From Dehalococcoidia bacterium (lineage in GTDB: Bacteria > Chloroflexota > Dehalococcoidia > Bin125): 64,000 bases of DNA. Shown in pieces: positions 14,628 to 15,038 of this stretch. The DNA lies in contig CBDHGH010000003.1 in NCBI GenBank assembly GCA_965263065.1, positions 2,565,592 through 2,629,591 of the forward strand, read 5' to 3'. The notes under the pieces were generated by a model that was given only the letters and a program-made list of their open reading frames with translations, did no database searches and had not been told where the DNA came from. The position numbers were made by a program, and so were the translations under genes. Each line of letters opens with the position of its first letter. The first letter of the stretch is position 1.

Positions 14628-15038
14628 CTGCGGTCAGGCGGCCTGTAAGCCGGGTTCTGTTCCCCGCCTGCCGGTGAGCCGGGCGGCGGGGTGGTGGCCA
14701 TCTGTCTCGGACGACGGTTACCCGCCGCCCCTAGCGACCTACCCGAGGGCGGAATGCGGCGCTCCTTGGCCCTCCTATTTGGTCTTGCTCCGGGCGGGGC
14801 TTGCCCAGCCGGACCAGTCACCTGATCCGCTGGTGCGCTCTTACCGCACCGTTTCACCCTTACCGCCCGTCCCGCCGGTGAGGGCGGAGGAGCGGCGGTC
14901 TGTCTCTGTGGCGCTTTCCGTGGGGTCACCCCCCCTGGATGTGGATCCAGCGCCCTGCCGCAACGGAGCCCGGACTTTCCTCGGCGCGACTGATGGCAGC
15001 CACCAGCGCGACGCGACCACCCGGCCACCTGACTGCCC
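14628..15038 (-). ncRNA. rnpB: RNase P RNA (bacterial type A)
   Basis: The reverse complement contains GGAAAGUCCGGGCUCC, AGGGCAGG..., GGUAAGGGUGAAACGGUGCGGUAAGAGCGCACCAG, GGAGCAAGACCAAAUAGG and ACAGAACCCGGCUUA; P1 pairing between GUCAGGUGGCC (5') and GGCCGCCUGAC (3'); followed by an 11-bp hairpin at 14600-14626. Confidence 0.85.

What the first reader, a model, noticed from the sequence alone, without database searches (positions are those of the whole stretch)
14628..15038. Unannotated RNase P RNA (rnpB) hidden under spurious ORFs, abutting the rnhA stop
The minus strand carries unmistakable type-A RNase P RNA blocks:
- GGAAAGUCCGGGCUCC (P4 5' strand).
- AGGGCAGGGCGCUGG.
- GGUAAGGGUGAAACGGUGCGGUAAGAGCGCACC.
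- GGAGCAAGACCAAAUAGG.
- ACAGAACCCGGCUUA (P4 3' strand).
- Complementary P1 strands.

The ORF track shows only artefactual ORFs here (14480..15028, 14209..15267). The 5' end of the RNA sits roughly 20 nt downstream of the rnhA stop codon. Its promoter must therefore lie inside rnhA, or the RNA is processed from a polycistronic transcript.
Basis: seen in the sequence. Interest (0 to 1): 0.5.

Follow-up and report, generated by a model that had tools for sequence, protein, structure and literature searches.

The report
Ordinary bacterial RNase P RNA gene

Summary
Confirmed and ordinary. Window 15032..14630 (minus strand) matches Rfam RF00010 (bacterial RNase P RNA, class A) over the full model at 258.8 bits (gathering score 100, E 3e-83). 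In the window RNA, 98 of 102 model base pairs are canonical, and the P4 and P6 pseudoknots can form. Across 76 homologous RNAs from Dehalococcoidia/Chloroflexota genomes, 94% of pair cells are paired (31-47% in slid controls) and 74 of 115 pairs show compensatory changes. The ORFs overlapping the RNA have no significant Pfam match.

The upstream gene is a single-domain RNase HI of the Rv2228c-N-terminal type, not E. coli-type rnhA. Its TAG stop lies 25 nt before the Rfam 5' end.

New detail: a TAnnnT hexamer (TACACT, 15048..15043) sits in that spacer. The same hexamer lies 4-14 nt (mostly 7-10) before P1 in 73 of 76 loci on the first scan (about 1.7% expected by chance), and in 75 of 76 after two 5' ends were corrected by eye. 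It holds whether RNase H is 10 nt or over 2 kb away. So rnpB most likely has its own -10 promoter, starting near G15036; read-through from the RNase H operon probably adds to it. RNase HI-to-rnpB adjacency is conserved in 79 of 80 related loci.

Kind: already known. Interest: low.

The parts
14630..15032 (-). rnpB: RNase P RNA, bacterial class A, 403 nt by the Rfam boundaries. The 5' end probably extends to G15036.
   Evidence: RF00010 full-length match, model positions 1-367, 258.8 bits against a gathering score of 100, E 3.4e-83. 98 of 102 model pairs are canonical. Covariation in 76 homologues.
15022..15032 (-). P1 5' strand (UCAGGUGGCCG). G15033, C15035 and G15036 can extend the helix.
   Evidence: Pairs 11 of 11 with 14645..14634. 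P1 is 98.6% paired with 8 covarying pairs. Extension pairing was read from the sequence and tracks the hexamer distance across loci.
14634..14645 (-). P1 3' strand (CAGGCCGCCUGA), followed by the tail CCGC (14633..14630).
14969..14977 (-). P4 5' strand (AAGUCCGGG, with a bulged U at nt 59), inside the GAGGAAAGUCCGGGCUCC block.
   Evidence: Forms 8 bp with 14654..14647. P4 is 100% paired in 76 sequences, with 3 covarying pairs.
14647..14654 (-). P4 3' strand (CCCGGCUU), inside the ACAGAACCCGGCUUA block.
14957..14961 (-). P6 pseudoknot 5' strand (GCGGC). It pairs with the P17 loop GCCGC at 14760..14756.
   Evidence: 5 of 5 pairs in the window. Relatives carry GGGAC/GUCCC, which is compensatory. 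The helix is 84.7% paired.
14756..14760 (-). P6 pseudoknot 3' strand (GCCGC), in the P17 loop.
14742..14744 (-). GGU of the P15/P16 internal loop (CGGGUAGG block), the element that binds the tRNA 3'-CCA end in class A RNAs.
   Evidence: G289, G290, G291 and T292 are invariant in all 76 RNAs. The functional assignment comes from established knowledge of E. coli M1 RNA.
14661..14691 (-). Extra hairpin between the P2 3' strand and the P4 3' strand (P19-like insertion), not part of the Rfam consensus pairs.
   Evidence: MFE -23.9 kcal/mol, z -4.0. The region has variable length in relatives.
15043..15048 (-). -10 promoter hexamer TACACT, in the 25-nt spacer between the RNase HI stop and rnpB.
   Evidence: TAnnnT lies 4-14 nt (mode 8-9) upstream of P1 in 73 of 76 loci, against about 0.017 expected per locus. 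T, A and T are invariant while the middle three bases vary. The count rises to 75 of 76 when the Rfam 5' ends for L025 and L049 are applied and the sequences printed are read by eye.
15066..15071 (-). Weak -35-like hexamer CGGACG (3 of 6 to TTGACA, 17-nt spacing), inside the last codons of the RNase HI ORF.
   Evidence: Read from the sequence. It is not conserved across clades, and the consensus promoter scan found nothing. Tentative.
15036..15036 (-). Predicted transcription start and 5' end of the RNA (G, the 7th nt after the hexamer). It can pair with C14630.
   Evidence: Inference from -10 geometry and P1 extension. Not mapped experimentally.
14599..14624 (-). Terminator-like GC-rich hairpin (11 bp, GGAA loop) starting 5 nt after the RNA's 3' end. 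The tail UGUGCUGUCC has no U-tract.
   Evidence: MFE -33.1 kcal/mol, z -5.3. Equivalent hairpins occur in the close clade L001-L005, L041, L007, L010 and L025. It is not called by the canonical terminator scan.
15058..15471 (-). RNase HI-family gene (single domain, 137 aa from the GTG; more likely 135 aa from the ATG at 15465). Its stop is TAG at 15060..15058.
   Evidence: PF13456 at 76.2 bits and PF00075 at 37.7 bits. NF005567 N-terminal domain. Homologues are 135 aa. D8, E48, D72 and D122 are invariant.
12957..14483 (-). murE (UDP-MurNAc-tripeptide synthetase), the next gene downstream, 146 nt after rnpB.
   Evidence: TIGR01085 at 441 bits. Syntenic in 54 of 80 loci.
15496..16947 (-). Large-serine-recombinase-like gene, 24 nt upstream of the RNase HI gene. 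Part of the conserved co-directional block (context).
   Evidence: PF07508, PF00239 and PF13408. Syntenic in 76 of 80 loci. Catalytic positions are not conserved.
16972..18120 (-). CT398-like coiled-coil / C4 zinc-ribbon gene, first gene of the co-directional block (context).
   Evidence: PF24481 at 38.2 bits; PF02591 at 27.6 bits, just under its 29.1 cutoff. Syntenic in 61 of 80 loci. The next gene upstream is divergent.

Best explanation
Window 15036/15032..14630 (minus strand) is rnpB, the gene for the class A (ancestral type) RNA subunit of bacterial RNase P. The organism is a high-GC Dehalococcoidia-class Chloroflexota bacterium. By established knowledge, the RNA folds into the standard P1-P18 architecture with the P4 and P6 pseudoknots, binds the small RnpA protein, and cleaves the 5' leader from precursor tRNAs. 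The GGU in the P15/P16 loop holds the tRNA 3'-CCA end. Expression (inferred): the gene has its own housekeeping-sigma promoter, whose -10 hexamer TACACT (15048..15043) lies in the 25-nt gap after the RNase HI stop codon. Any -35 contact falls in the last RNase HI codons. Transcription starts at about G15036, so the primary 5' end is already the base of helix P1, as in E. coli rnpB. Transcription ends at, or is processed back from, a GC-rich hairpin at 14624..14599. There is no room for a terminator between the RNase HI gene and rnpB. Transcripts of the upstream block (CT398-like, recombinase-like, RNase HI) therefore probably also read into rnpB and would need 5' trimming. The ORFs drawn across the region are artefacts of 70% GC content.
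For: Identity: RF00010 full-length hit at 258.8 bits against a gathering score of 100. 98 of 102 consensus pairs are canonical and every helix P1-P3, P5 and P7-P18 is present. P4 (8 bp plus the bulged U) and P6 (5 bp) form. In the 76-sequence alignment, 94.3% of pair cells are paired against 31-47% in slid controls. 74 of 115 pairs have changes on both sides, and the covariation score is 0.362 against 0.146 in shuffles (0 of 500 reach it). P1 is 98.6% paired; P2 and P4 are 100% paired. Core nucleotides are invariant. Orthology: 16 of 17 sampled related loci have RF00010 at 225-315 bits in the same position.

Promoter: TAnnnT lies 4-14 nt (mostly 7-10) upstream of P1 in 73 of 76 loci, against about 1.7% expected. 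T, A and T are invariant (2.5-2.7 bits) while the middle three bases vary. With the Rfam 5' ends for L025 and L049, a TAnnnT appears at the usual distance in both when the sequences are read by eye, giving 75 of 76. The hexamer keeps its distance to rnpB whether the RNase HI stop is 10 nt or up to about 2.4 kb away, including loci where other genes are inserted between them. Extra P1 pairing upstream of the Rfam start grows with hexamer distance, as expected if transcription starts about 7 nt after the hexamer. TANNNT is the preferred -10 of the housekeeping sigma factor in another high-GC group, where 79% of M. smegmatis promoters carry ANNNT at -6 to -13 (PMC6448022).

3' end: hairpin z-score -5.3, conserved in the close clade.

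Spurious ORFs: no significant Pfam match.
Against: No experimental 5' or 3' end data exist for this organism. The simple sigma-70 scan found no promoter, because the -35 is poor: CGGACG, 3 of 6. No -35 is conserved across clades. The hairpin lacks a U-tract and fails the canonical terminator scan, and a comparable hairpin is not seen right after the RNA in many relatives. The 76 loci are phylogenetically related, so the counts overstate the number of independent observations. The variable middle bases of the hexamer and the variable spacers reduce this concern. Whether the genome carries rnpA, or a second rnpB copy, was not examined; only 64 kb is available.
Confidence: 0.9

Rival explanations
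1. rnpB has no promoter of its own. The RNA is made only as the 3' part of a polycistronic transcript (CT398-like, recombinase-like, RNase HI, rnpB) and is released by endonucleolytic processing. The conserved TAnnnT would then be a processing or recognition signal, or a coincidence of descent.
For: There are only 25 nt and no terminator between the RNase HI stop and the RNA. RNase HI and rnpB are adjacent and co-directional in 79 of 80 related loci, with gaps of 10-50 nt in most. The three protein genes are separated by only 24-nt gaps, as in an operon. No good -35 is present.
Against: The TAnnnT element stays at the same distance from P1 when RNase HI is 0.8 to about 2.4 kb away and other genes lie in between. 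Its conservation pattern (T, A and T fixed, middle bases free) and its distance to the base of P1 are those of a -10 element. In L032, L033 and L035 the hexamer-containing unit is tandemly repeated directly upstream of rnpB. Read-through may well coexist with the promoter; only the exclusive version of this rival is disfavoured.
Confidence: 0.12
2. The locus is a decaying or non-functional extra copy of rnpB (a pseudogene), and the working copy lies elsewhere in the genome.
For: Only 64 kb of the genome is visible, so a second copy cannot be excluded. The bit score (258.8) is at the low end of the range seen in relatives, 225-315.
Against: 98 of 102 pairs are canonical and all catalytic-core blocks are intact. 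The gene is syntenic with the single rnpB found in 79 of 80 relatives. The lower score comes from lineage-specific insertions in P3, P12 and the P19-like hairpin, which are shared with L001 and L041, the closest relatives at 95% RNA identity. It does not come from broken helices.
Confidence: 0.02
3. One of the long ORFs across the region (14480..15028 minus, 14209..15267 plus) is a real protein-coding gene, and the RNase P resemblance is secondary.
For: The ORFs are long (182 and 352 aa).
Against: Neither has a Pfam match. At 70-72% GC, long stop-free frames are expected on both strands. The substitution pattern among relatives is compensatory base-pair change, not codon-wise. The plus-strand ORF also runs antisense through the 3' part of the RNase HI gene and the 5' part of murE.
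Confidence: 0.01

Closest known systems
Bacterial RNase P RNA class A (Rfam RF00010; E. coli M1 RNA / rnpB is the type example)
   Same: Full-length covariance-model match. The P1-P18 helices, the P4 and P6 pseudoknots, the bulged U in P4, the GGU CCA-binding loop and the universally conserved core blocks are all present. Like E. coli rnpB (established knowledge; Lundberg and Altman 1995 is listed in the references of PMC11251521, but could not be read), it appears to start transcription at the mature 5' end, and a hairpin follows the 3' end.
   Different: It is 403 nt against the 367-position consensus. The extra length is a longer P3 loop, a longer P12 and a 31-nt P19-like hairpin. It has 71% GC. 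Its genomic neighbourhood (RNase HI upstream, murE downstream) is lineage-specific. The hairpin has no U-tract.
rnpB of related Dehalococcoidia/Chloroflexota MAGs (for example OZ244557.1 = L001 and CBDBQC010000004.1 = L041)
   Same: 95% RNA identity to each, the same flanking genes, the same TACACT hexamer and the same 25-nt spacer.
   Different: The window is not identical to any fetched genome. More distant relatives differ in P3 and P12 length. L007, L010 and L025 lack P18.
TANNNT-type -10 promoters of housekeeping sigma factors in high-GC bacteria (M. smegmatis / M. tuberculosis TSS maps)
   Same: A TAnnnT hexamer with free middle bases, with or without a recognisable -35, a few nucleotides upstream of the start (PMC6448022).
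   Different: That promoter type was mapped in Actinobacteria. No transcription-start data exist for this Chloroflexota lineage, so the analogy is an inference.
Rv2229c-Rv2228c-type gene pair (CT398/zinc-ribbon protein followed by bifunctional RNase H/acid phosphatase, NF005567)
   Same: A CT398_CC/Zn_ribbon_9 gene lies upstream of an RNase H gene of the same subfamily.
   Different: Here the RNase H has no phosphatase domain. A recombinase-like gene is intercalated, and rnpB follows. In the two bifunctional loci examined, no RNase P RNA follows the RNase H gene.

Membership tests
Rfam RF00010, bacterial RNase P RNA class A | Covariance-model score at or above the curated gathering score (100 bits), full-length | tested here: met
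   258.8 bits, model positions 1-367 of 367, not truncated. Competing clan members (class B, archaeal) scored lower and were dropped.
Rfam RF00010, bacterial RNase P RNA class A | P1, P2 and P3 helices and the P4 long-range pseudoknot with a bulged U (catalytic core) | tested here: met
   P1 11/11, P2 7/7, P3 7/9, P4 8/8 pairs with U59 bulged. Across 76 homologues P1 is 98.6% paired and P2 and P4 are 100% paired, with compensatory changes.
Rfam RF00010, bacterial RNase P RNA class A | Class A-specific elements: P13/P14, P16/P17 with the P6 pseudoknot, and P18 | tested here: met
   P13 6/6, P14 9/9, P16 6/6, P17 4/5, P18 8/8, P6 5/5. P6 covaries: GCGGC/GCCGC against GGGAC/GUCCC.
Rfam RF00010, bacterial RNase P RNA class A | Conserved core nucleotides (GAGGAAAGUCCGG, ACAGAA...CCGGCUUA, GGU of L15) | tested here: met
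   Exact matches in the window. Invariant or nearly so in 76 RNAs.
Rfam RF00010, bacterial RNase P RNA class A | Catalyses pre-tRNA 5'-leader cleavage and associates with RnpA | not testable with these tools
   Needs biochemistry. rnpA was not looked for in the window, and there are no tRNA genes in it.
Sigma-70-type (housekeeping) promoter | -10 hexamer with T at -12, A at -11 and T at -7, about 7 nt upstream of the start | tested here: met
   TACACT at 15048..15043, 6 nt before G15036. TAnnnT conserved in 73 of 76 loci, against about 1.7% by chance.
Sigma-70-type (housekeeping) promoter | -35 hexamer resembling TTGACA at 16-18 nt spacing | tested here: not met
   The best candidate is CGGACG, 3 of 6. 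The consensus scan found 0 sites, and there is no cross-clade conservation at -35. Only Tepidiformaceae relatives show TGGTCA or TAGCCA at 17 nt.
Sigma-70-type (housekeeping) promoter | A mapped primary 5' end | not testable with these tools
   Needs dRNA-seq or primer extension.
Intrinsic (Rho-independent) terminator | GC-rich hairpin immediately followed by a U-tract | tested here: not met
   The hairpin is present (11 bp, z -5.3), but the tail UGUGCUGUCC is not a U-tract and the scan found 0 sites. It may act as a terminator variant or as a 3'-end protection or processing hairpin.
RNase HI (type 1 RNase H) - the 'rnhA' label | RNase H fold domain above the family threshold, with conserved carboxylate active-site residues | tested here: met
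   PF13456 at 76.2 bits (cutoff 21.6) and PF00075 at 37.7 bits (cutoff 25.8). D8, E48, D72 and D122 are invariant in 22 homologues. Their catalytic role is assigned by analogy.
E. coli-type RnhA (NCBIfam NF001236) | Equivalog score at or above 160 bits | tested here: not met
   38.8 bits. The best match is the N-terminal domain of NF005567, bifunctional RNase H/acid phosphatase, at 155.8 bits against a full-length cutoff of 326.

The most novel reading that the evidence does not exclude
In Dehalococcoidia-class Chloroflexota, rnpB is locked to the 3' end of a conserved block: CT398-like protein, a large-serine-recombinase homologue whose catalytic Ser and Arg positions are not conserved, then RNase HI. 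The rnpB -10 promoter element is packed against the RNase HI stop codon, and in some genomes it literally contains that stop codon. The most novel reading is that this is a functional module. RNase P RNA output would be coupled to transcription and translation of the RNase HI operon through promoter occlusion or read-through. The domesticated recombinase-like protein would have a new, non-recombination role connected with RNA or RNA/DNA-hybrid processing.
Probability: 0.15. Interest if true: 0.4.

Novelty: already known. Interest (0 to 1): 0.15.

Why it matters
As a finding it mainly matters for annotation quality. In a 70% GC genome, mechanical ORF calling draws 180-350 aa ORFs straight across an essential ribozyme gene, and a covariance-model scan removes them.

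The added value is modest. The data give a well-supported prediction of where rnpB transcription starts in an uncultured Chloroflexota lineage: a TAnnnT -10 with no clear -35, wedged into or overlapping the stop codon of the upstream gene. They also show that RNase HI and rnpB are kept adjacent across a whole class. Gene-neighbourhood resources tend to miss such links because they ignore RNA genes.

The conserved recombinase-like gene without conserved catalytic residues next door may be the more interesting lead. It is outside this finding.

Tried and rejected
(1) Canonical sigma-70 promoter and intrinsic-terminator scans of 14300..15700 found nothing. The promoter evidence therefore rests on comparative conservation, not on a consensus match.

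(2) I first took the serine recombinase gene upstream of RNase HI for a mobile-element insertion. I rejected this because a full-length homologue is syntenic in 76 of 80 related loci.

(3) I recalled, from memory, that actinobacterial Rv2228c-type RNase H genes are followed by rnpB. Literature searches gave nothing. Two bifunctional NF005567 loci (L082, L083) show the CT398-RNase H pair but no RNase P RNA in the 180-240 nt downstream. The recollection is not supported, with n = 2 short contigs of unknown taxonomy.

(4) I looked for a citable description of E. coli rnpB transcription and 3' processing. The key paper (Lundberg and Altman 1995, PMC1369085) is not held, and two Kushner/Kirsebom-lab papers did not state it. 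That comparison is therefore marked as established knowledge only.

(5) A relaxed Rfam scan of 14300..15400 for any other RNA family returned only RF00010.

(6) PDB sequence search with the recombinase-like protein matched only its middle recombinase domain, so it could not settle the state of the catalytic domain.

(7) No structure prediction or fold search was run. Nothing in the finding required it.
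Full report
OBSERVATION

The minus strand of window 14400..15300 was read directly.
- GGAAAGTCCGGGCTCC at 14980..14965
- GGTAAGGGTGAAACGGTGCGGTAAGAGCGCACC at 14864..14832
- GGAGCAAGACCAAATAGG at 14791..14774
- ACAGAACCCGGCTTA at 14660..14646
- the complementary P1 strands

The sixth block was mis-transcribed by two bases: the sequence reads GCGGCAGGGCGCUGG, not AGGGCAGGGCGCUGG.

A scan of the whole window against Rfam 15 at gathering thresholds gives a single hit. It is RF00010 (bacterial RNase P class A) at 15032..14630 on the minus strand, at 258.8 bits against a gathering score of 100, E 3.4e-83. 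It covers model positions 1-367 of 367 without truncation. A relaxed scan of the local kilobase finds nothing else.

STRUCTURE

I threaded the window RNA (403 nt, 71% GC) on the Rfam consensus structure. 98 of 102 consensus pairs are Watson-Crick or G-U:

| Helix | Pairs | Helix | Pairs |
|---|---|---|---|
| P1 | 11/11 | P11 | 5/5 |
| P2 | 7/7 | P12 | 10/11 |
| P3 | 7/9 | P13 | 6/6 |
| P5 | 4/4 | P14 | 9/9 |
| P7 | 5/5 | P15 | 4/4 |
| P8 | 5/5 | P16 | 6/6 |
| P9 | 5/5 | P17 | 4/5 |
| P10 | 2/2 | P18 | 8/8 |

The covariance model cannot represent the two pseudoknots, but both form. P4 pairs nt 56-64 with nt 379-386: 8 bp with the conserved bulged U59. P6 pairs GCGGC (nt 72-76) with the P17 loop GCCGC (nt 273-277).

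The extra length over the 367-position consensus comes from three places: a longer P3 loop, a longer P12, and a 31-nt hairpin between the P2 3' strand and the P4 3' strand (P19-like; -23.9 kcal/mol, z -4.0).

COMPARATIVE SUPPORT

The protein encoded just upstream was used to fetch 80 related genomic loci. All are metagenome-assembled genomes labelled Dehalococcoidia, Chloroflexota or Tepidiformaceae, except one labelled Anaerolineaceae and one Eiseniibacteriota. The closest are OZ244557.1 (L001) and CBDBQC010000004.1 (L041).

nhmmer with the window RNA finds a homologous RNA downstream on the same strand in 77 of 80 loci. A motif search for the P4 5' strand raises this to 79 of 80, adding a contig that ends early and one where the RNA is 3.9 kb away. 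Rfam confirms RF00010 at 225-315 bits in 16 of 17 sampled loci.

I aligned 76 distinct RNAs (alignment A2) and counted the window-derived structure, including P4 and P6, on that alignment:
- 94.3% of 8436 pair cells are standard pairs, against 31-47% when the 3' partners are slid by 1-3 columns.
- 74 of 115 pairs show changes on both sides.
- The covariation score is 0.362, against 0.146 in shuffles (0 of 500 reach it).
- P1 is 98.6% paired with 8 covarying pairs. P2 and P4 are 100% paired.
- P6 switches between GCGGC/GCCGC and GGGAC/GUCCC.

This is a functional RNase P RNA under purifying selection, not a relic.

THE ORFS

The list of mechanical ORFs shows 14480..15028(-), 14209..15267(+) and 14841..15461(-) across the RNA. 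None has a significant Pfam match; the only hit is 13.7 bits, E 0.081, below its cutoff. The window is 68-74% GC throughout, which produces long stop-free frames on both strands. The plus-strand ORF is antisense to three real features. I agree they are artefacts.

THE NEIGHBOUR CALLED rnhA

ORF 15471..15058(-) matches PF13456 (76.2 bits) and PF00075 (37.7 bits). Its homologues are 135 aa, so the true start is probably the ATG at 15465. D8, E48, D72 and D122 are invariant in an alignment of 22 homologues.

In NCBIfam its best match is the N-terminal RNase H domain of NF005567 (bifunctional RNase H/acid phosphatase, the Rv2228c family) at 155.8 bits. The E. coli-type RnhA model gives 38.8 bits against a cutoff of 160. 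It is therefore an RNase HI-family gene, but 'rnhA' is a loose label. The stop codon is TAG at 15060..15058, and 25 nt separate it from the Rfam 5' end.

HOW IS rnpB EXPRESSED?

I defined the 5' end of P1 in each related locus by complementarity to the 10 nt that follow GGCUUAca. This gave 10 of 10 pairs in nearly all loci, with many compensatory variants, and it agreed with the Rfam ends.

The gap from the RNase HI stop to P1 is 10-50 nt in most loci, but 0.3-3.5 kb in about a dozen.

In 73 of 76 loci a TAnnnT hexamer lies 4-14 nt (mode 8-9) upstream of P1. The background frequency of TAnnnT in these GC-rich loci predicts about 1.7% per locus. With the Rfam 5' ends for L025 and L049, the sequences printed show TACGAT and TACACT at 9 and 8 nt, read by eye. 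That makes 75 of 76; only the Eiseniibacteriota locus lacks the hexamer.

The three defining positions (T, A, T) are invariant, at 2.5-2.7 bits. The middle bases vary: TACACT, TACAGT, TAGACT, TAGAGT, TACGCT, TAGGCT, TACAAT, TATAAT and others. This is the signature of a -10 element rather than of shared descent alone.

The element stays with rnpB when other genes have been inserted between RNase HI and rnpB. L056 carries an ORF that looks like a transposase, and L035 carries a small two-gene cassette. Both were judged by eye from the translations, with no domain search.

In L032, L033 and L035 a 12-nt unit containing the hexamer is tandemly repeated just upstream of rnpB. In L014, L029 and L063 the RNase HI stop codon (TAG or TAA) is itself the first three bases of the hexamer.

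In the window the hexamer is TACACT (15048..15043). The seventh base after it is G15036. G15036, C15035 and G15033 can pair with C14630, G14631 and C14633, extending P1 by three pairs around one A-C mismatch. Across loci, the number of extra P1 pairs upstream of the Rfam start rises with the hexamer-to-P1 distance. For distances 5, 7, 8, 9 and 10 the means are 0, 1.3, 1.6, 2.8 and 2.0 (3.9 allowing one mismatch). This is what is expected if transcription starts about 7 nt after the hexamer and the primary 5' end is the base of P1.

No -35 is conserved across clades. The window's best candidate is CGGACG, 3 of 6 at 17 nt, and it lies in the last RNase HI codons. The consensus promoter scan reports nothing. 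TANNNT without an obvious -35 is the preferred housekeeping -10 in another high-GC group: 79% of M. smegmatis promoters carry ANNNT at -6 to -13 (PMC6448022).

My reading is that rnpB has its own promoter, with the -10 in the spacer and upstream contacts overlapping the end of the RNase HI ORF. Nothing in 25 nt could terminate transcription, so RNase HI-operon transcripts probably also read into rnpB. The processing-only version is disfavoured.

THE 3' END

Five nucleotides after the Rfam 3' end there is an 11-bp GC-rich hairpin with a GGAA loop (14624..14599). The 56-nt stretch containing it folds at -33.1 kcal/mol, z -5.3. Equivalent hairpins follow the RNA in the window's own clade and in L007, L010 and L025, but not in all relatives. 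It has no U-tract and is not called as an intrinsic terminator. It may be a U-less terminator or a protective or processing hairpin. In E. coli, by established knowledge, rnpB is transcribed past the mature 3' end to a terminator hairpin and then trimmed.

GENOMIC CONTEXT

tblastn of the window's proteins against the 80 loci shows a conserved co-directional block:
- CT398-like coiled-coil / zinc-ribbon protein: 61 of 80 loci
- large-serine-recombinase-like protein: 76 of 80
- RNase HI: 80 of 80
- rnpB: 79 of 80
- murE: 54 of 80

In the window the three protein genes are separated by 24-nt gaps. The gene upstream of the block is divergent (FabD-like).

I tested whether the RNase H-rnpB link extends to Rv2228c-type bifunctional genes. 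Two NF005567 members (483.7 and 454.4 bits) have the CT398-like gene directly upstream. Neither has an RNase P RNA in the 180-240 nt available downstream. As far as sampled, the rnpB linkage is a Chloroflexota/Dehalococcoidia feature.

COMPARISON WITH WHAT IS KNOWN, AND VERDICT

Every defining feature of RF00010 that sequence analysis can test is met. Catalysis and RnpA binding cannot be tested here. The gene is an ordinary member of a universally distributed, thoroughly characterised ribozyme family, detected by the standard model at 2.6 times its threshold.

The kind is already known. The only additions are a comparative prediction of its promoter and start site, the stop-codon/-10 overlap in some relatives, and the class-wide RNase HI-rnpB synteny. 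Interest is low (0.15).

The most novel reading not excluded is that the conserved block is a functional module coupling RNase P RNA output to the RNase HI operon, involving a catalytically degenerate recombinase homologue. I put that at about 15%.

Noticed in passing
window 15496..16947 (-); homologues at about 2400..3990 of most loci L001-L080: A full-length large-serine-recombinase-like protein (Resolvase + Recombinase + Zn_ribbon_recom domains) sits between the CT398-like gene and the RNase HI gene in 76 of 80 related genomes, so it is not a mobile insertion. Fold positions are conserved (Y6, D36, G70 in gamma-delta resolvase numbering), but the catalytic positions are not: R8 is S/V/T/R, S10 is G/P/R/Y/S/C/T and others, and D67, R68 and R71 vary. 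The Pfam Resolvase match starts only at profile position 15. It is possibly a domesticated, catalytically inactive recombinase.
   Followed up: partly
L014 about 4412..4417, L029 about 4406..4411, L063 about 4406..4411: In three relatives the RNase HI stop codon (TAG or TAA) is the first three bases of the rnpB -10 hexamer (TAGACT, TAGAGT, TAAGCT), leaving only 10-11 nt between the stop codon and P1. In several Tepidiformaceae loci the stop codon TAG is instead the first three bases of a -35-like TAGCCA.
   Followed up: partly
L035 5595..5640; also L032 and L033 just upstream of rnpB: A 12-nt unit containing the -10 hexamer (CGCTACAGTGCC) is tandemly repeated 3.8 times directly upstream of rnpB, in loci where a small two-gene cassette separates RNase HI from rnpB.
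   Followed up: partly
L007 4553..4902, L010 4554..4904, L025 2870..3214: These RNase P RNAs lack helix P18 altogether (alignment gap across A2 columns about 390-414) but still score 249-250 bits in the two that were scanned with Rfam (L007 and L025). This looks like a lineage-specific loss of P18 within the group.
   Followed up: no
L046, L056, L063, L072 (A2 columns about 327-356): A 20-30 nt insertion forming an extra GC-rich hairpin in the P16/P17 region of the RNase P RNA in four relatives.
   Followed up: no
window 11550..12923 (-): A 457-aa ORF downstream of murE has no Pfam match. Among the 80 loci, homologues occur only in the two closest relatives, L001 (96%) and L041 (83%).
   Followed up: no
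window 1..64000: Neither ARAGORN nor Rfam at gathering threshold finds any tRNA gene or any structured RNA other than rnpB in the whole 64 kb.
   Followed up: yes
L082 2217..4134, L083 1648..3569: Bifunctional RNase H/acid phosphatase genes (NF005567) are directly preceded by a CT398_CC/Zn_ribbon_9 gene. This matches the window's CT398-like...RNase HI arrangement without the recombinase-like gene and without rnpB, which suggests the CT398-RNase H pairing is the older, wider linkage.
   Followed up: partly
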